From Mobula hypostoma (taxonomy: Eukaryota), in assembly GCF_963921235.1 (NCBI RefSeq), contig NC_086097.1, forward strand, positions 176,702,001 to 176,766,000: a stretch of DNA of 64,000 nucleotides, read 5' to 3'. Positions 34,180 through 45,560 of the stretch are shown piece after piece. Position numbers and translations under genes: made by a program. Position 1 is the first letter of the stretch. Every line of letters begins with the position of its first letter. The notes under the pieces were generated by a model. The model was given only the letters and a program-made list of their open reading frames with translations, did not search any database and was not told the DNA's origin.

Positions 34180-36679
34180 GCATAGATTATATGATGGATT
34201 TACTGAGTATGTCTACAAGAAAATAATCTCAGGGTTGTATATGATGATATATATGTACTTTGATATTAAATTTACATTGAATTTTGAACTTTGAACATCA
34301 ACATAGAAATTTTGATCACGGATACAGGGAGAAAATGCAAAGTATATACAGGACTGAACCTTTCACACTATCCTAATTTGGAAATAATTTTGTGATTTAC
34401 GGTATAGTAATTTAATCTTTGCACAGCATTGATGCTGCAAATTTTATGCCATGTAAGTCAGGTACAATAAATCTGATTCTGATTCTGGAATATATCACTG
34501 GTCCTTCATCAACACTGAGTCTAAATCCTGGAACGTCCTTGCTGACAGTACTGTGGAAGCACGTTCACGAAAAGGACCGCAGCAGTTCTGAAAGGCAGCT
34601 CACCATTGCCTCCTCGAGGGCAGTTAGGGATGGGCAATAAATGCTGGGCTAGGCTCAACACTGAACAATTAAAATTGGTAGTTTAGCCACAGCCTGCCAA
34701 GGGATACATATGATGAACTCATTTGCCTCTTCCTGTGCCTCTCCATGATTCCACAAATTACAATGGGGAGTGCAAAATGGAATTGGGGATTGGAAGAAAA
34801 GATAATTCAAATCAGGAGATGACACATAATTGGCACAATGTTAGAAAATGATTGTCAACCCACCACTCTTGTAGTTCTCAAAAGCTTTTGATATTATTTA
34901 ATCATCTTTTGTAAGCCTTGAATTGGAAATCAACTCGTTTTAGCTTTGATACACAGATATATGTAGAGAAAAGCTGCTTATCACAAGTGCTTTTGAAAAG
35001 CTGGCTTCTCATTCTGCCTGAGCAGAACAATGTGGCAATAATTGTGTATAATTTGCAATAAAGGCTCCATAAAAAAATTGGATTCATGACTGGATTGTGA
35101 AGTATTGTAAAGTTTGTGGGTTTTTATTTAGAAGGCATTCTAACTAGTGTTTTTGCATTTAAAATTGAGAAGAAAACACTTCTGTATAAAGTTATTTTTC
35201 CAAAGTTTCCAAATCTTAGAAAACAAAATAAGAACTTTCATGTTGATGTGTCATGGTATTCTGGTGAAAGGTTAGGGACCTGAAAAGTTAACCTTAACTA
35301 TAGCTTTACAAAAAACTAGCTGCAAGAGGACTCAATGGATCAGGAGGGAAATGGAAAGTTGACATTTTGTATCGGGATCCTTCCCTGGAGTGAAAGATAG
35401 AGGATACATAGTCAGTATTCAGCGATGATGGGAAGCAATGGGAGCAGATCAGTGGGCAACAGGTGTAACTACAAACACAAGAAATTCTGTAGATGCTGGA
35501 AATCCAAACCAACTTACACAAAATGCTGGAAGAACTCAGCAGCATCTATGAAAATGAGTAAACAGTCTGCGTTTTAGGCCAAGGTCCTTCTTCAGAACTG
35601 GAAAGGAAGGGGGAAGACACTAGAATAAAAAGGTGGGGGTAGGGGAAGAATGATAGCTAGAAAGTTATAGTCGAAGCCAAGTAGATGGGAAAGGTAAAAG
35701 GCTGGGATTGAAGGCATCGGATTGGAGAGGAAAGTGGACCATAGGAGAAAGGGAAGGAGGAGGGGCACCAGGAGGAGGTGATAAGCAGGTGAGATAAGCC
35801 AGAGTGGAGAATAGAAGGAGGGGAGGGAAAGGGAATTTTTTTACTGGATGGAGAAATCGATATTCATGTCATCAGGTTGGAGGCTACCCAGATGGAATAT
35901 AAGGTATTGCCCCTCCACCCTGAGGGTGGCTTCATCATGGCACAAGAGGAGGCCAGGGACCGATATGTCAGAATGGGAATGGGAATGGGAATTAAAATGT
36001 TGTGCCACTGGGAATTTCCACTTTTGTTGGATGGAACTAAGGTGCTTGCCAAGGCGGTCCCCCAATTTACATTGTATCTCACCAATGTAAAGGTGGCCAC
36101 CTCGGGAGCACTGGACACAATAGATGACTGCAGCAGATTCACAGTGAAGTGTTACCTCATCTGGAAGGACTGTTTGAGGCCCTGAAAGAACCTGAGAAAA
36201 CAAGTGAATGGGCAGGTGCAGCACTTCAACCATATGCAGGGATGAGTTGGGAGGGGTGAACGGACAAGTGAATCACAGAGATCCCATGGAAGGCAGAAAG
36301 CTGGGGGGAGTTAATGACGGGTTTAGTGGTAGGGTCCCTTGGAGATAGTAGAAGTTGCAGAGAATGCTGTGGAGGCTCTTGTGGTGGTGTATAAGGGCGA
36401 GATGTACTCTATCACTGCTAAGGCGGCAGGAAGATGGGGGTGAGTGTGGATATCCAGGTAATGGTGCAGATGTAAATGAGGGCAGCAACCAATGGTGGAG
36501 GAAGGGAAAGTCCGTTGTTTGAAGAAGGAGGACAGCTCTGATGTTCTGGATAGAAAAGCCTCATTCTGGGAATGGATGCGGTGGAAACTAGGAACTGAAA
36601 AAAGGGAATAGGATTTTTAGAGGACACAGGGTGGGAAGAGGTATAGTCAAGATAGTCATGGGAATCGGTAGGTTTCCAC

Positions 36680-37476
36680 TGGGGCTGAGAAGTGGCAGAT
36701 GGAGTTCAACCCGGATAAGTGTGATAGGTCAAATATGATGGCAGAATATAGTATTAATGGCAAGACTCTTGGCAGTGTGGAGGATCAGAGGGATCTTGTG
36801 GTCCGAGTTCAAAGGATACACAAAGCTGCTGCGCAAGTTAGCAATGTGGTTAAGAAAGCATATGGTGCATTGGCCTTCATCAATCATGGGTTCGAGTTTA
36901 AGAGCCGAGAGGTAATGTTGCAGCTATATAGGACCATGGTCAGACCCCACTTGGAGCACTGTGCTCAGTTCTGGTCGCCTCACTACAGGAAGGATGTGGA
37001 AACCATTGAAAGGGTGCAGAGGAAATTTACAAGGATGTTGCCTGGATTGGGGAGCATGCCTTATGAGAACAGGTTGAGTGAACTCAGCCTTTTCTCCTTG
37101 GAGCAATGGAGGATGAGATGTGACCTGATAGAGGTGTATAAGATGATGAGAGGCATTGCTCGTGTGGATAGTCAGAGGCTTTTTCCCAGGGCTGGAATGG
37201 CTAGTACAAGAGGGCATAGTTTTAAGATGCTTGGAAGTAGGTACAGAGGAGATGTCAGGAGTAAGTTTTTTACGCAGGGAGTGGTGAGTGCGTGGAATGG
37301 GCTGCCAGCGATGGTGGTGGAGGCGGATACGATAGAGTCTTTTAAGAAACTCTTGGACAGGTACATGGAGCTCAGAAAGATAGAGGGCTATGGGTAACCC
37401 TAGGTAATTTCTAAGGTAAGGACATGTTCAGCACAACTTTATGGGCCGAAGTGCCTGTATTGTGCTATGTTTCTAC
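36680..37476 (+). mobile_element. CR1 3' part inserted in Penelope
   Basis: ORF 36699-37397 (232 aa) is CR1 ORF2 C-terminus. Confidence 0.95.
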
Positions 37477-38427
37477 GTTTATAAAAGATGTCGGTCGACA
37501 GTTTGTCTCCAATTTTGAGACAGAGAGAACAAGACAGGGGAAGGAGATGTGAAATGGACCAAGTGAATTTAAGGGAAGGGTGGAAGTTGGAAGCAAAGTT
37601 AAAGAAATTGACAAGCTCAGCATGGGTGCTTGAAGTAACACCAATGCAGTCAACAATGTAGTGGAGGAAGAGTTGGGGAGCATTACCAGGCAAAACTGGG
37701 AACATGGACTGTTCTACATAGCCAATGAAAAGGTATGCATAGCTGGGGCCCATACAGGTGCCCATGGCTTCCCCTTGAGCCAGGAGAATGTGGGAGGAGC
37801 TGAAGGAGAAATTGTTGAGGGTGAGGATCAGTTCTGTCAGATGGAGGAGGGTGGTGGTGGAGGGAAATTGGATGGTCCTTTTATTAAGAAAGAAGCAGAG
37901 AGTTTTAAGGCCATCTTGATGGGTGATAGAAGTGTATAGGAATACTACACCCATGGTGAAAATGAGGCAGTCAGGGCCAGGGAATTGAAAGTTAATGAGG
38001 AGATGAGAAAGTTGCAGATGTAGGAAAGGAAAAAACCAAGGAAGAGAGAATAGAGTCAAGGTATGAAGACACGAGTTCAGGGGGACAAGAGCAGACGGAG
38101 ACAATGGCCCTACCCAGACAATCAGATTTGTGGATCTCGGGCAGGAGGTAAAAGTGAGAAAAGAGGGGTAAGAGAACTATGAGTTTTGTGGCAGTAGATG
38201 GGAGCTCTCCAGAGTTGATGAGATCAGTGATGGTGCTAGAGACAGTTTTCTGATGGTCTGGTGAGGGGTCCTTTTCAAGGCATAGTTATGAGGAGGTGTC
38301 TGAGAGATGCTGCCTGGCCTCAGCAAAGGTAGAGGTCAGTCTGTCACACTGCAACAGCACCCCGTTTGTCTGCGAGTTTGATGGTCAGGTTAGGATTGGT
38401 GGGGAGAGCGCGGAGGGCAGTGCATAC

Positions 38428-39092: not shown

Positions 39093-40026
39093 TAAACATA
39101 CATAGAAACATAGAAAATAGGTGCAGGAGTAGGCCATTTGGCCCTTCGAGACTGCATCGCCATTCAGTATGATCATGGCTGATCATCCAACTCAGAACCC
39201 TGTACCAGCCTTCCCCCCATACCCACTGATCCCTTTAGCCACAAGGGCCATATCTAACTCCCTCTTAAGTATAGCCAATGAACTGGCCTCAACTGTTTCC
39301 TGTGGCAGAGAATTCCACAGATTCACCACTCTCTGTGTGAAGAAGTTTTTCCTAATCTCGGTCCTAAAAGGCTTTCCCTTTATCCTCAAAATGTGACCCC
39401 TCGTTCTGGACTTCCCCAACATCGGGAACAATCTTCCTGCATCTAGCCTGTCCAATTCCTTTAGGATTTTATGCGTTTCAATAAGATCCCCCCTTGATCT
39501 TCTAAATTCCAACGAATATAAGCCTAGTCGATCCAGTCTTTCATCATATGAAAGTACTGCCATCCCAGGAATCAATCTGGTGAACCTTCTTTGTACTCCC
39601 TATGGCAAGGATGTCTTTCCTCAGATTAGGGGACCAAAACTGCACACAATACTCCAGGTGTGGTCTCACCAAGGCCTTGTACAACTGCAGTAGTACCTCC
39701 CTGCTCCTGTACTCGAATCCTCTTGCTATGAATGCCAGCATACCATTCGCCTTTTTCACCTCCTGCTGTACCTGCACGCCCACTTTCAATGACTGGTGTA
39801 TAATGACACCCAGGTCTCGTTGCACCTCCCCTTTTCCTAATCGGCCATCATTCAGATAGTAATCTGTTTTCCTGTTTTTGCCACCAAAGTGGATAACCTC
39901 ACATTTATCCACATTAAATTGCAACTGCCATGAATTTGCCCACTCACCTAACCTATCCAAGTCACGCTGCATCCTCTTAGCATCCTCCTCACTGCTAACA
40001 CTGCCGCCCAGCTTCGTGTCATCCGC
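39093..40026 (-). mobile_element. 5'-truncated CR1, same subfamily as 41564-43707
   Basis: ADDTKLGGSVSSEEDAKRMQ...; one frameshift; aaacatag tail. Confidence 0.95.
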
Positions 40027-40265
40027 AGCCAAGGTCCAGCCTGGAGCCAGAGTTGGGGGCCATGCAATTTTCAGTCTGAAGATGTCGGGAGTTGTTGGAA
40101 CTGGCACTGATGGCAGTGGAATCTGAGCTCTGGATCTAATCGAGGTTATTCGAACCAGTGTGGACAACAAGTGTGTCATTGGTCCAGAGGAACTGGAGCA
40201 GGAACCGGGCTTGGCAACAATTATATCACTGGTCCAGAGGCATCTAGGTCTGTCAGAGCGGGGGT

Positions 40266-40964
40266 TGTGATCATTTTTACTGTTTAAAATGTATCAAGCG
40301 GTGGCTTGAATCAGGACAACGACTCTGCCCACTGCGCCGTACTTCTCCAGATGATGGTTATGTACCAGCGGTAACAGAAGAAATAAGTGAAGCTGTAGCA
40401 AAATTAGTCATATTTCGCAAGATGTGCGATGCATTTTTCATAGCTTTGGTTTCCATGGTCTGCTTCAAAGATGACTTGCCACCGACAAAAGAAGTGATTG
40501 GTGATCTTCTGTCTCTGCTAGTTATTCAAAAGTCGGGCAGTCCAATGACTCACAGAAAGATTAGTACTTTACCAGTAACAGTTCACCATTTGGTGAAGCA
40601 GTTGATCGAAATCCTGTTGTTCGTTCCATTGTTCTTAGGCTGCTGTTAAAGTACAGTTTTGCTGATATTAAGGATTACCTGCAGTGCTATCTGTCTAGCT
40701 CAGGAGGGAGAATTCCTTCTGGTGCACATTGAGCACAAGTGTGAAAATACAACAATGGAACCCTTACAGTTTGTTGCCAGAATTCGCCTCTGTTTTGATG
40801 CTGTTTCCCAACTTTTTTGTGAGAAGCAAGACACATTGGCTGAGGATTCAAAATATGTATGTGCAAAAGAAACTTTCCTGCAAAGGATTAAGTGTATGAT
40901 TCTCAATGGAGGAAATGATTGGTTCGAGATTTACCTTGTGCAAAAGCTGTTCTGTTTGAATGGA
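40266..40964 (+). pseudogene. RNF213: Intronless RNF213 (mysterin) fragment: RING C-terminal half and following E3 region
   Basis: CDHFYCLKCIKRWLESGQRLCPLR...FRKMCDAFFIALVSMVCFKDDLPPTKEVIGDLLSLL; SPFGEAVDRNPVVRSIVLRLLLKYSFADIKDYLQ; VARIRLCFD...[12 protein letters not shown] match recalled RNF213; frameshift and internal deletion. Confidence 0.9.
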
Positions 40965-43744
40965 GATGCTGGTCTTTTCGGAGATTTAAGCTTATTGAGA
41001 ATTTGCAGATCTTCCATTATCTGTTCATCTGTTTACAAGTAATTTAACAGCGCAGGTGCAGGTTTTTGTCTTTTGTCGGTAATTGGAACAGGGTCATTAG
41101 GTCTCCTCCTTAGTTTCCTAGTCGTTATTGACTTTACCTCTATAGAAACTCCTGTGAGTTCTATTGTTAGTCTCTCATTCTCAATCATCTATTTTCTTTT
41201 CTTCTAACTCAATCTTCTTATCTTCAAATTCCTTCACTGCTGCTTTCTTTCACTTGTTCTGTCTCCAGTTGCAGAAAAAGTTCTGCATTTCATATTCTTT
41301 CCTTGTATTGTTGATCTGGTTTCTTCATCCTTTTCTGATACTCCTGCAAAGTGCCTTCCTGCAACTGCTGTAGCTGTCTTTTGAGAGATGTCAATTTCTC
41401 CTGGTACATCTGCTGTTTTACTTCCAGGTAGACTTCATCATCCTGCTTATTGGCAATATCTGTCTCCCTTGTATCCTCTGTATCATCATCAGAGTCGCTG
41501 CCACGGATACTGCATTTTTCCTCATCATCAACGCTGTCTAGCTCTTCCTCATTGTAGTAATAGAAACATAGAAACATAGAAAATAGGTGCAGGAGTAGGC
41601 CATTCGGCCCTTCGAGCCTGCACCGCCATTTATTATGATCATGGCTGATCATCCAACTCAGAACCCAGCCTTCCCTCCATACCCCGTGACCCCTGTAGCC
41701 ACAAGGGCCATATCTAACTTCCTTTTAAACATAGCTAATGAACTGGCCTCAACAGTTTGCTGTGGCAGAGAATTCCACAGATTCACCACTCTCTGTGTGA
41801 AGAAGTTTTTCCTAACGTCGGTCCTAAAAGGCTTCCCCTCTATCCTCAAACTGTGACCCCTCGTTCTAGACCTCCCCAACATCGGGAACAATCTTCCCGC
41901 ATCTAGCCTGTCCAATCCCTTTAGGATCTTATACGTTTCAATCAGATCCCCCCTCAATCTTCTAAATTCCAACGAGTACAAGCCCAGTTCATCCAGTCTT
42001 TCTTCATATGAAAGACCTGCCATCCCAGGAATCAATCTGGTGAACCTTCTTTGTACTCCCTCTATGGCAAGGATGTCTTTCCTCAGATTAGGGGACCAAA
42101 ACTGCACACAATACTCCAGGTGTGGTCTCACCAAGGCCTTGTACAACTGCAGTAGTACCTCCCTGCTCCTGTACTCGAATCCTCTCGCTATAAATGCCAG
42201 CATACCGTTCGCCTTTTTCACCGCCTGCTGTACCTGCATGCCCACTTTCAATGACTGGTGTATAATGACACCCAGGTCTCGTTGCACCTCCCCTTTTCCT
42301 AATCGGCCACCATTCAGATAATAATCTGTTTTCCTATTTTTGCCACCAAAGTGGATAACTTCACATTTATCCACATTAAATTGCATCTGCCATGAGTTTG
42401 CCCACTCACCCAACCTATCCAAGTCACCCTGCATCCTCTTAGCATCCTCCTCACTGCTAACACTGCCACCCAGCTTCGTGTCATCCGCAAACTTGGAGAT
42501 GCTGCATTTAATTCCCTCATCCAAGTCATTAATATATATTGTAAACAACTGGGGTCCCAGCACTGAGCCTTGCGGTACCCCACTAGTCACCGCCTGCCAT
42601 TCTGAAAAGGTCCCGTTTATTCCCACTCTTTGCTTCCTGTCTGCTAACCAATTCTCCACCCACACCAATACCTTACCCCCAATACCATGTGCTTTAAGTT
42701 TGCACACTAATCTCCTGTGTGGGACCTTGTCAAAAGCCTTTTGAAAATCCAAATATACCACATCCACTGGTTCTCCCCTATCCACTCTACTAGTTACATC
42801 CTCAAAAAATTCTATGAGATTCGTCAGACATGATTTTCCTTTCACAAATCCATGCTGACTTTGTCCGATCATTTCACCGCTTTCCAAATGTGCTGTTATC
42901 ACATCCTTGATAACTGACTCCAGCAGTTTCCCCACCACCGACGTTAGGCTAACCGGCCTATAATTCCCCGGTTTCTCTCTCCCTCCTTTTTTAAAAAGTG
43001 GGGTTACATTAGCCACCCTCCAATCCTCAGGAACTAGTCCAGAATCTAACGAGTTTTGAAAAATTATCACTAATGCATCCACTATTTCTTGGGCCACTTC
43101 CTTAAGCACTCTGGGATGCAGACCATCTGGCCCTGGGGATTTATCTGCCTTCAATCCCTTCAATTTACCTAACACCACTTCCCTACTAACATGTATTTCG
43201 CTCAGTTCCTCCATCTCACTGGACCCTCTGTCCCTTACTATTTCTGGAAGATTATTTATGTCCTCCTTAGTGAAGACAGAACCAAAGTAATTATTCAATT
43301 GGTCTGCCATGTCCTTGCTCCCCATAATCAATTCACCTGTTTCTGTTTGCAGGGGACCTACATTTGTCTTTATCAGTCTTTTCCTTTTTACATATCTATA
43401 AAAGCTTTTACAGTCCGTTTTTATGTTCTCTGCCAGTTTTCTCTCATAATCTTTTTTCCCCTTCCTAATTAAGCCCTTTGTCCTCCTCTGCTGAACTCTG
43501 AATTTCTCCCAGTCCTCAGGTGAGCCACTTTCTCTGGCTAATTTGTATGCTACTTCTTTGGAATTGATACTATCCCTAATTTCTCTTGTCAGCCACGGGT
43601 GCACTACCTTCCTTGATTTATTCTTTTGCCAAACTGGGATGAACAATTGTTGTAGTTCATCCATGCAACCTTTAAATGCCTGCCATTGCATATCCACCGT
43701 CAATCCTTAATAGTCGACAATGGATAGAGGAGAGCTGTGGACAT
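40960..43744 (-). pseudogene. SUDS3: Processed SUDS3 (Sin3 complex SDS3) copy, 3'-truncated, split by a CR1 (parts 43744-43708 and 41563-40960)
   Basis: MSTALL..(V)[15 protein letters not shown]...[31 protein letters not shown]...[14 protein letters not shown]...[22 protein letters not shown]; no introns; stops and short deletions. Confidence 0.95.
41564..43707 (-). mobile_element. Young 5'-truncated CR1 with uninterrupted 681-aa RT frame
   Basis: ORF 41658-43703 with [25 protein letters not shown]; 6-bp TSD taatag (41558-41563, 43708-43713). Confidence 0.97.
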
Positions 43745-45560
43745 CTTCCCTGCCAAGCTGCCCTCCTTTGTTGATACATCTAGTGCCTTGATGGTGTGCC
43801 AATCCAGCTGGATTTTCCTGAGCCATTCACGTCCCAGCGACGGTGGTCCTCCATTTTTCAGTACATAGAGGTTCAGCTGCTGTGTTTTGTCTCCGTATGT
43901 CACTGTCACTTTAATTTTGCTTTTGGGACACACTTTCTGTCCTGTGTAAGTCTTTAGCAGTAGTGTAGTTCGTTTCAGAGGTATGTGAGAAAACAGTTGT
44001 TTGTAGTTGTGTACAGAGATCACTGTTAAAGCTGAGCCTGTGTCTAACTCCATTTTCATTATCACGCCTGCCACTTGTGGAGTGATCCTTATTACTCTTT
44101 GATCACCTGTCTCTTCCATGTTGTGAAGTGGCAGACAAGACAATTCATTTTCATCTGAGTCTTTTTCATCAGAACTGCTTTCTTCCATTTTGTGTATATT
44201 ATTGTGTTTTCCTTTCTGGGCTTTCTTGTTTCTCTGTATTTTGTCCTTTTTCTGCTGTTTACTAGCTTTGCATACTCTGCCAATGTGGCCCTGTTTGCCA
44301 CAGTTTTGGCATTCTTTGTCTTTAAACCAACAGTCATACAGGTCATGTGACCTGTTCCCACAACGGTAACATTTCTTTCCTTCATTTCTGTTCAGTGACA
44401 TTTTATTCATAGCATATTCCAGAGATTTTTGTTGTATCTCGGAAGCACCCCATGCCGCTATTTCCATTGATATTGCAATGTTGAGCGCTTTCTCGAATGT
44501 AAGGTCTCTTTCACACAGAAGCTTCATCTGTGTTGTTTCACAGTGCATGCCACACACTAACCTGTCCCTCAATGCATCTGATAGACCAGCTCCAAATTGA
44601 CAATGTTCTGATAATTTGCGCAATTCAGCACAATATTCAGAAAGGCTTTCATTTTCACTCTGATTCCGATTGTGAAATTTAAATCTTTCAGCAATGACCA
44701 TTGGTTTGGGGTTTAAATGCAGTTGGAGAGTGTCGACTATTTGCTTGAACATTTCGTCAGCTGGCTTTTCGGGGGTTAACAAGCTCCGTAGCAGGCCATA
44801 TGTTTTTGCTCCCATAATACTGAGTAAGACTCTGGCTTTCTTTTCATCCTTAACACCGTTAGCCTCACAATATAACTCCACTCTTTTAATGTAAGTTGCC
44901 CAATCTTCAATGTCACTATCAAATGCTGTTCCAATCATCACCATCTTTGTTATGTTAATTAAGCCCCGTTCTCCCCTTATTTTCCTTTTTGATTCATGTG
45001 TCCTTTTTGCTAGCGCCACGAGCACACTCCGTCTAGACGTGTGTGTGTCGCTCCTTTTTATCTCCCTTCTGGGGCAGGCAGACCCGCAGACCCTCAGCCC
45101 CTGGGGGTCAGCGCCGGCTGTGGTCTCGGCTGGACGTACTGTGGATCTGACTGTGTCTCTTGATCTCCCGATGTTCCCGATCCCGGCTGTGCTCCCGCTT
45201 CCTTTCAGACTCGCAGCCTCACTCTGCCTCCTTCTCCTGCTCCTTGGCTCGTTCCTTGCGCTCTTCCTCCAAGTGTCATTATCAACTAAAACACAACGTT
45301 CCGATAAGGTGTAGGTTCATTAACCTCGTCGCCAATTTGTTGTGTATGTGGCCCAGTTACACAACAATGCTATTAATAAAAATGCTGCACACGGGAGCTA
45401 AGTTTTATGGTTCTTTACTGGCATAATCCAAACTTGGCACACACGTACAGATCAATACGTGCCTAATAGCGCATGCTCAATATGCGCGTAATAGCGCATT
45501 CAACGACGTGTTACTAAAACATAAATTAGTCCCTTATTATACTGTAGGCTATATGGTACA
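43745..45560 (-). mobile_element. Gypsy (Mag-like) 5' half: LTR, PBS, open gag-protease
   Basis: LTR about 45338-45560; PBS TGGCGACGAGG (45334-45324, complementary to the tRNA-Ser(GCU) 3' end); LRDRLVCG; two CCHC knuckles CYRCGNRSHDLYDC and CQNCGKQGHIGRVC; protease LDTGS...LGREWL. Confidence 0.92.
45062..45272 (-). pseudogene. ACIN1: ACIN1-like C-terminal coding fragment with stop codon and short 3' UTR, inside the Gypsy leader
   Basis: LEEERKERAKEQEKEAE*GCESERKREHSRDREHREIKRHSQIHSTSSRDHSRR* versus recalled Acinus end [39 protein letters not shown]; low complexity reduces certainty. Confidence 0.7.

What the first reader, a model, noticed from the sequence alone, without database searches (positions are those of the whole stretch)
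40266..45560. Gypsy element loaded with three unrelated host transcript fragments (ACIN1, SUDS3, RNF213)
Seen: on the minus strand the order is LTR - PBS - ACIN1-like 3' fragment - gag/protease - SUDS3 from its ATG - inverted RNF213 fragment. None has a poly(A) tail or its own TSD, and pol is absent where SUDS3 starts. Established: LTR-retrotransposon-mediated retroposition makes tail-less, often chimeric retrocopies by RT template switching between co-packaged RNAs. Inference: this is a cargo-collecting, gag-retaining non-autonomous element, not a set of LINE-made processed pseudogenes. I could not find a 3' LTR in the window.
Basis: partly seen in the sequence, partly recalled or inferred. 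Interest (0 to 1): 0.92.

Follow-up and report, generated by a model that had tools for sequence, protein, structure and literature searches.

The report
Ray retrotransposon family carrying host mRNAs
This is one decayed copy of a jumping-gene family in a ray that picked up pieces of three host messenger RNAs one after another and then copied them to hundreds of places, which probably explains why the gene SUDS3 has so many pseudogenes in rays.

Summary
It is a Gypsy (Mag-like) LTR element with three host cargos, all traced to parent genes in the same genome: the end of ACIN1's last exon in the leader, spliced SUDS3 replacing pol, and a spliced antisense RNF213 piece inside SUDS3.

Junction counts: ACIN1 425 places, protease-to-SUDS3 334, protease-to-RT (pol-type) 185, SUDS3-to-RNF213 37. 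Each step survives as its own subfamily. Siblings have paired LTRs and 5-bp TSDs. SUDS3 joined through 7-bp microhomologies and is in frame with Gag-protease, but shows no purifying signal; gag does.

RNF213 is flanked by a 10-bp duplication and is antisense, so it did not enter by the usual minus-strand switch.

The mechanism is known (Tan 2016; maize Bs1). The scale, the nested series and the antisense step are unusual. It offers a one-capture explanation for SUDS3 being a top retrocopy parent in cartilaginous fishes (2026 preprint). The scan met this family three times before at other places in this genome.

The parts
45338..45560 (-). 5' LTR, 223 bp, TG...CA, with a 25-bp internal tandem repeat
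   Evidence: the same sequence is the 3' LTR of siblings
45324..45334 (-). primer binding site (tRNA-Ser type; that assignment is recalled, not tested)
   Evidence: same place in siblings
45070..45270 (-). ACIN1 cargo: end of the last coding exon, stop codon and about 40 nt of 3' UTR, sense, in the untranslated leader
   Evidence: 86% to the parent exon at G000:C40:~16.843 Mb; absent from pol-type copy L058
43757..44944 (-). gag (two CCHC knuckles by eye) plus aspartic protease, 396 codons, frame open in this copy
   Evidence: length; weak Pfam hits, all below cut-off; homologues named K02A2.6-like, many with RT downstream
43757..43763 (-). 7-bp microhomology at the protease-to-SUDS3 switch; the join is in frame
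43708..43756 (-). SUDS3 5' UTR (12 nt) and first codons; ATG at 43744; a 1-nt shift in this copy
   Evidence: matches parent exon 1 at G000:C78:~8.4395 Mb
41564..43707 (-). later CR1 LINE insertion (5'-truncated ORF2, 8-bp repeat tail, 6-bp duplication); not part of the family
   Evidence: absent from siblings
40962..41563 (-). spliced SUDS3 cargo, codons about 12-226 of the parent protein, with the family's 8-codon in-frame deletion
40962..40971 (-). left copy of the 10-bp duplication that flanks RNF213 in siblings; spans the SUDS3 exon 9/10 join
40266..40964 (+). spliced RNF213 cargo, antisense to the element (end of RING onward; about 920 nt in siblings, cut at 40266 here), with an internal deletion of about 128 nt
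40028..40265 (.). older unrelated repeat that follows the deletion; not cargo
   Evidence: 37 other places at 68-85%; no sibling continues into it
39100..40027 (-). second, shorter CR1 piece beyond the break
   Evidence: 91-97% to the first CR1

Best explanation
A Mag-like Gypsy LTR retrotransposon of rays gained host mRNA in steps and kept multiplying.

(1) A pol-bearing element took about 200 nt of ACIN1 3' end into its leader. Shown: pol-type copies exist with and without it.

(2) During reverse transcription RT switched onto a co-packaged SUDS3 mRNA and back, through 7-bp shared words, so that the whole SUDS3 coding sequence replaced RT, RNase H and integrase. Junctions and intron loss are shown; the switch inside a particle is inferred.

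(3) The result kept LTRs, PBS, PPT and gag-protease, and was copied in trans by pol-bearing relatives to at least 334 places. Paired LTRs and separate 5-bp TSDs are shown; the helper is inferred.

(4) One SUDS3-bearing copy gained a spliced RNF213 piece in reverse, with 3-bp microhomology at each end and a 10-bp duplication, and founded a subfamily of at least 37. I think this most likely happened when RT making the plus strand jumped onto RNF213 mRNA and returned 10 nt back (about 45%); LINE-primed insertion or break repair into a genomic copy is nearly as likely (about 40%).

(5) Subfamilies recombined. The cargo is a passenger. The window copy later took a CR1 insertion and lost its 3' end.
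For: Family: 40 of 40 scored candidates (3042 in the first look) match over 1500 nt, the 39 other than the window at 86-90%. Of 19 fetched siblings, 18 run into SUDS3 at the same base and 1 into RT. Junction counts, up to 3 mismatches, reversed-pattern controls all 0: 425, 334, 185, 37.

Spliced: SUDS3 exons 9 and 10 joined without their intron; four RNF213 exons joined.

Microhomology: 7 bp at the SUDS3 5' join; 7 bp at the short 3' join, read against pol-type L058 and a long-form copy; 3 bp at each RNF213 end.

True retrotransposition: of 7 elements with both flanks, 4 have a perfect 5-bp TSD, 2 have one mismatch, 1 has two. L058 has RT, RNase H, integrase in Gypsy order.

Passenger: shared differences are enriched at third codon positions in gag (OR 2.40, p 0.005) but not in SUDS3 (OR 0.84, p 0.65).

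Recombination: both 3' forms occur with and without RNF213; cargo class does not cluster on the gag tree.
Against: The RNF213 step departs from the standard model: antisense, and with a duplication that looks like a TSD. ACIN1 lies within one exon, so intron loss cannot show an mRNA origin; its junction words are only 4 bp and 1 bp against a diverged relative. The gag tree is nearly a star (5 of 32 inner branches well supported), so it gives no order of events; the order rests on nesting. The SUDS3 last exon was not fetched, so the long 3' join is not mapped to the parent. The neutrality test has few shared sites (55 in SUDS3; 6 in RNF213-free copies) and the sample is biased to RNF213-bearing copies (26 of 45). 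The protease part also lacks a purifying signal (OR 1.20, p 0.68).
Confidence: 0.85

Rival explanations
1. The RNF213 piece was put into a genomic SUDS3-bearing copy by LINE-type target-primed reverse transcription or by RNA-templated break repair, not inside the Gypsy particle. The rest of the story is unchanged.
For: 10-bp flanking duplication; antisense orientation is free under this route; 3-bp priming microhomology. The genome is rich in CR1, and a CR1 inserted into this very cargo with a short duplication.
Against: No poly(A); the piece ends mid-exon about 1,000 codons before the RNF213 stop. It also has an internal deletion with a 4-bp shared word, like the RT-slippage deletion in SUDS3.
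Confidence: 0.4
2. The SUDS3 cargo helped the element spread. It is in frame behind Gag-protease, so a Gag-PR-SUDS3 polyprotein could be made, cut, and act on Sin3/HDAC silencing.
For: In-frame join: 25 of 29 printed junction translations run from the protease motif into the SUDS3 start; the other 4 were printed in a wrong frame by the script. SUDS3-type copies outnumber pol-type 334 to 185. Several annotated SDS3-like proteins in rays have full frames of about 311-321 aa.
Against: No third-position enrichment in shared SUDS3 differences. An 8-codon deletion in the coiled coil and other amino-acid changes are common to copies while parent proteins of three genera are identical there. The RNF213 subfamily truncates the frame and still multiplied. 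An in-frame join has a 1 in 3 chance.
Confidence: 0.08
3. Independent LINE-made processed pseudogenes landed in Gypsy copies, or one chimera spread by segmental duplication, or the locus is a misassembly.
For: The RNF213 duplication; a repeat-rich region.
Against: Identical joins at 334 places on many contigs; pol is replaced, not interrupted; different flanks and TSDs; contigs of another run (X10, organism D) bridge both the protease/SUDS3 and RNF213/SUDS3 joins.
Confidence: 0.03

Closest known systems
LTR-mediated retrocopies of animals (Tan et al. 2016, PMC5131818; passages read)
   Same: mRNA replaces internal ORFs; microsimilarity at switch points (median 6 bp there, 7 bp here); no poly(A); several parent genes possible; further retroposition as a non-autonomous element.
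   Different: There, a few insertion sites per event in the passages read; here hundreds. Here all intermediate steps survive as subfamilies. One cargo is antisense with a 10-bp duplication; the passages read do not discuss cargo orientation ('orientation' and 'opposite' 0 hits).
Maize Bs1 (as described in PMC5131818; primary papers not read)
   Same: LTR element with exonic pieces of three host genes; all copies share switch points.
   Different: 1-5 copies per species against at least 334; plant; partial exons rather than a whole coding sequence.
Crocodilian CrocERV29 (KIT ligand) and CrocERV31 (nectin3) (PMC4299795; passages read)
   Same: Old vertebrate LTR elements that carry a whole host coding sequence in several copies and across species.
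   Different: Retroviruses; 9 and 6 copies; cargo added beside pol or in place of env and under purifying selection. Here cargo replaces pol and shows no purifying signal.
Defective transducing retroviruses with gag-host fusions (recalled, no call)
   Same: LTR-gag-host cDNA in frame-LTR, helper dependent.
   Different: No env; germline amplification; no sign that the cargo is selected.
Mag lineage of Ty3/Gypsy (features from PMC3286476 Table 1; passages read)
   Same: About 4.7 kb, LTR about 200 bp, 5-bp TSD, single gag-pol frame.
   Different: No RT tree against Mag references was made.

Membership tests
Ty3/Gypsy LTR retrotransposon | paired LTRs TG...CA, PBS, PPT | tested here: met
   siblings; the window copy has only the 5' LTR and PBS
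Ty3/Gypsy LTR retrotransposon | pol order protease, RT, RNase H, integrase | tested here: met
   pol-type relative L058; window copy has no pol
Ty3/Gypsy LTR retrotransposon | short TSD at each insertion | tested here: met
   5 bp; 4 perfect, 2 with one mismatch, 1 with two, of 7
Mag lineage | RT phylogeny with Mag references | not tested
   no reference set; size, LTR length and TSD agree; tRNA-Ser reading of the PBS is recalled
LTR-mediated retrocopy (Tan 2016) | cargo lacks introns | tested here: met
   SUDS3 and RNF213; ACIN1 is within one exon, so not testable
LTR-mediated retrocopy (Tan 2016) | internal element sequence replaced, not merely interrupted | tested here: met
   SUDS3 replaces RT to integrase
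LTR-mediated retrocopy (Tan 2016) | microsimilarity at switch points | tested here: met
   7 bp and 7 bp for SUDS3; 3 bp and 3 bp for RNF213; 4 bp and 1 bp for ACIN1, weak
LTR-mediated retrocopy (Tan 2016) | no LINE hallmarks (poly(A), own TSD) on the cargo | tested here: inconclusive
   met for SUDS3 and ACIN1; RNF213 has no poly(A) but a 10-bp duplication
LTR-mediated retrocopy (Tan 2016) | secondary retroposition as a non-autonomous unit | tested here: met
LTR-mediated retrocopy (Tan 2016) | co-transcription from the LTR | tested here: inconclusive
   only contigs of runs guessed to be RNA
LINE-made processed pseudogene | poly(A) tail and mRNA 3' end | tested here: not met

The most novel reading that the evidence does not exclude
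The element did not just carry SUDS3. It expressed it as a Gag-protease-SUDS3 polyprotein, and the released, slightly deleted SUDS3 interfered with Sin3/HDAC silencing, helping the family outgrow its pol-bearing helper. Some intact copies may now act as extra SUDS3 genes in rays.
Probability: 0.08. Interest if true: 0.85.

Novelty: new variant of a known kind. Interest (0 to 1): 0.55.

Why it matters
A 2026 preprint on 244 vertebrate genomes (10.64898/2026.06.26.734816; passages read) lists SUDS3 among the top retrocopy parents of cartilaginous fishes and reads such lists as transcript capture that tracks non-LTR elements, followed by selective filtering. Here at least 334 SUDS3 copies come from one capture multiplied by an LTR element, with no purifying signal. 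In this genome SUDS3's rank would be pseudo-replication, not repeated retroposition or selection. The same check can be run on the other listed parents (MIPOL1, SDF2L1, SLU7, ZNF276).

The family also preserves a nested series (empty, +ACIN1, +SUDS3, +RNF213, deletion derivatives) with parents in the same genome, a clean natural record of RT template switching, including an antisense step. Practically, databases annotate these copies as SDS3-like genes, which can look like a gene family expansion.

I found no paper describing the element (searches; the library lacks most subscription journals and Repbase/Dfam were not available; the preprint's supplements could not be seen and may bear on this).

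Tried and rejected
Protein search for longer RNF213 relatives: 0 hits among 114 candidates, limited to 2000 aa. The first splice-anchored pattern for the SUDS3 parent found nothing; a looser one found it. The RNF213 paralogue at C68:41.28 Mb was rejected as parent: only 34-57% protein-level matches, no DNA match.

A pattern for ACIN1-free leaders gave 9 hits against 13 in the control, which I first read as 'no ACIN1-free form'. L058 then proved ACIN1-free with a diverged leader, so that negative was wrong. L059 is broken by nested insertions and was not used. 40028-40265 was considered as a fourth cargo and rejected. No tRNA genes in the window.

Expression: no RNA holder listed. Among the pieces shown (about 30 of some 6,900) none from the three RNA-guess runs bridges a cargo junction of the reference in one stretch; this is no evidence either way.

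LTR pairs with under 150 aligned columns (4 of 14) were dropped from the age range. The RNF213 control for the codon-position test was not completed. A finer tally of long and short 3' forms, of open frames among copies and of the 24-nt deletion was not made; the 3'-form counts come from the cruder. The stingray genome paper PMC10787021 (passages), the snail paper PMC9719178 (passages) and the VGP preprint PMC13320880 (passages) do not describe this element.
Full report
Setting. The window is G000:C1:176,702,001-176,766,000 of a 3.48-Gb genome. The nearest named SUDS3 proteins are from rays (Mobula, Pristis, Hypanus, Hemitrygon).

Anatomy of this copy (minus strand). LTR 45560-45338, PBS, ACIN1 piece 45270-45070, a 396-codon gag-protease frame 44944-43757, 12 nt of SUDS3 5' UTR and the SUDS3 ATG at 43744. 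A CR1 LINE (43707-41564; RVT_1 E 5e-34) interrupts SUDS3 after about 12 codons. SUDS3 resumes at 41563 and runs to 40962. RNF213 follows on the opposite strand, 40964-40266. Beyond 40266 lies an older unrelated repeat. No second LTR is in the window.

Parents. ACIN1: the RSB-motif exon is at C40:16.84 Mb and the last exon matches the window cargo at 86% over 184 nt and nine siblings at 82-87%. SUDS3: exon 1 at C78:8.4395 Mb and exons 9-10 at C78:8.3945 Mb; the cargo joins exons 9 and 10 without the intron. RNF213: of two paralogues on C68, the one at 48.8 Mb matches at 91-98% over four exons that are contiguous in the cargo; the start of the piece maps to C68:48,810,679 (1 hit, control 0). So two of three cargos are shown to be spliced. 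ACIN1 cannot be tested.

It is a family. The LTR-to-protease query matched all 40 scored candidates over more than 1500 nt. Of 19 fetched siblings, 14 carry uninterrupted SUDS3, 2 carry SUDS3 with RNF213, 2 are broken by other insertions before that point, and 1 (L003) runs on into RT. Genome-wide junction counts with up to 3 mismatches, each with 0 in the reversed control: ACIN1 5' join 425, protease-to-SUDS3 334, protease-to-RT 185, SUDS3-to-RNF213 37. The SUDS3 pattern catches 38 of 43 distinct fetched copies that have the join, so about 380 is a fair estimate. Siblings end in PPT and a 3' LTR. Of 7 elements with both flanks, TSDs of 5 bp are perfect in 4, one mismatch in 2, two mismatches in 1. 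LTR pairs differ by K2P 0.06-0.14 (10 pairs of at least 150 columns; 4 shorter pairs dropped), and end branches on the gag tree have median 0.05: an old, finished burst.

The series. L058 is a 4.7-kb pol-type copy with RT, RNase H and integrase in Gypsy order, in broken frames, and no ACIN1. L003 is pol-type with ACIN1, and five more listed pol-type places have the ACIN1 join 1.5-1.7 kb upstream (comparing the 100 listed rows each). Then come SUDS3-only and SUDS3+RNF213 copies. The order is read from nesting; the tree does not test it.

Junctions. At the SUDS3 5' join, the pol-type element and the SUDS3 5' UTR share 7 bp exactly at the switch (window 43763-43757). The join is in frame (25 of 29 printed translations; 4 printed in a wrong frame). 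The 3' join has two forms. The short form returns to the end of integrase through another 7-bp shared word; the long form carries about 250 nt more UTR and rejoins a little further on. One search classed RNF213-free copies as 4 short and 3 long and RNF213-bearing loci as 12 short and 3 long; the other 28 of 50 loci were unclassed. Neither form can come from the other by simple deletion, so lineages recombined. Cargo class is also unclustered on the gag tree (11 changes against 11.9 shuffled; well-supported branches force at least 3), although that tree is nearly a star.

RNF213 is different. It is antisense, sits at the SUDS3 exon 9/10 join, has 3 bp of microhomology at each end, and duplicates 10 bp of spliced SUDS3 that include both words. 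It has no poly(A) and ends mid-exon. It lacks about 128 nt internally; RNF213-like contigs in two other runs have 131 letters there. A minus-strand switch would give sense cargo (established retroelement biology, recalled). I put a plus-strand jump onto co-packaged mRNA at about 45%, LINE-primed insertion or break repair at about 40%, and capture from an antisense transcript of an older retrocopy at about 15%.

Is the cargo useful? Counting differences by codon position at non-CpG sites, shared (3 or more copies) against private: gag-protease 28/19/42 against 158/150/139 (OR 1.98, p 0.005); gag alone OR 2.40, p 0.005; protease part OR 1.20, p 0.68; SUDS3 22/17/16 against 155/129/139 (OR 0.84, p 0.65). 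All 8 annotated SDS3-like proteins shown lack 8 residues (138-145) that 3 of 3 parent-type proteins have. So gag was constrained on shared branches, perhaps partly through recombination with pol-type copies, and the cargo was not. Power is modest.

Other species. SDS3-like proteins with the same deletion are annotated in two Mobula species and in Hypanus sabinus, and one (P0084) contains the junction read in another frame. Contigs of run X10 (organism D) bridge the protease/SUDS3 join and the RNF213/SUDS3 join. The SUDS3 capture therefore seems older than the split of devil rays and whiptail stingrays; the Hypanus evidence is one protein.

Known context. The mechanism is LTR-mediated retroposition (PMC5131818, passages). 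Bs1 has three host pieces in 1-5 copies (as cited there). Crocodilian ERVs carry KIT ligand and nectin3 in 9 and 6 copies (PMC4299795, passages). A 2026 preprint lists SUDS3 among the top retrocopy parents in cartilaginous fishes without, in the passages read, tying it to an LTR element. Earlier scan notes report this family at three other places and similar families with USP35, RBM25 and MYH16 cargo (the latter unchecked here).

Verdict. Known mechanism, unusual scale and layering. New variant of a known kind; interest 0.55.

Noticed in passing
L026:916-1675: A 758-nt deletion joining RNF213 cargo to SUDS3 3' part, with 3 shared letters, appears in contigs of all 4 runs laid; probably a further amplified subfamily. 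L033 and L045 show similar deletions.
   Followed up: no
L026:2439-3890: One contig of RNA-guess run X18 joins the 5' part of gag directly to internal SUDS3 (skips 1450 nt, non-canonical ends): a deletion copy that may be transcribed.
   Followed up: no
window 45452-45499; L007, L011, L013, L018: The LTR has a 25-bp tandem repeat present once or twice, and several elements differ between their own 5' and 3' LTR, in L018 despite a perfect TSD.
   Followed up: partly
G000:C68:41.28-41.30 Mb and 48.81-48.85 Mb: Two RNF213 paralogues; only the second gave the cargo.
   Followed up: partly
G000:C66:7268735: A second SUDS3 exon-1-like match followed by a donor-like site; could be a decayed copy or a duplicate exon.
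   Followed up: no
L059: A pol-type copy with a CR1 in gag and a different Gypsy element nested in its RT.
   Followed up: no
window 41564-43707 and 39100-40027: Two CR1 copies 91-97% alike, 2.5 kb apart; the first keeps a 682-aa open frame, so it is much younger than the Gypsy copy.
   Followed up: partly
window 35793-38285: Decayed frames that look like Penelope-type RT and GIY-YIG endonuclease (label recalled).
   Followed up: no
P0073, P0076, P0079-P0084: Public annotations call family copies 'SDS3-like' protein-coding genes.
   Followed up: partly
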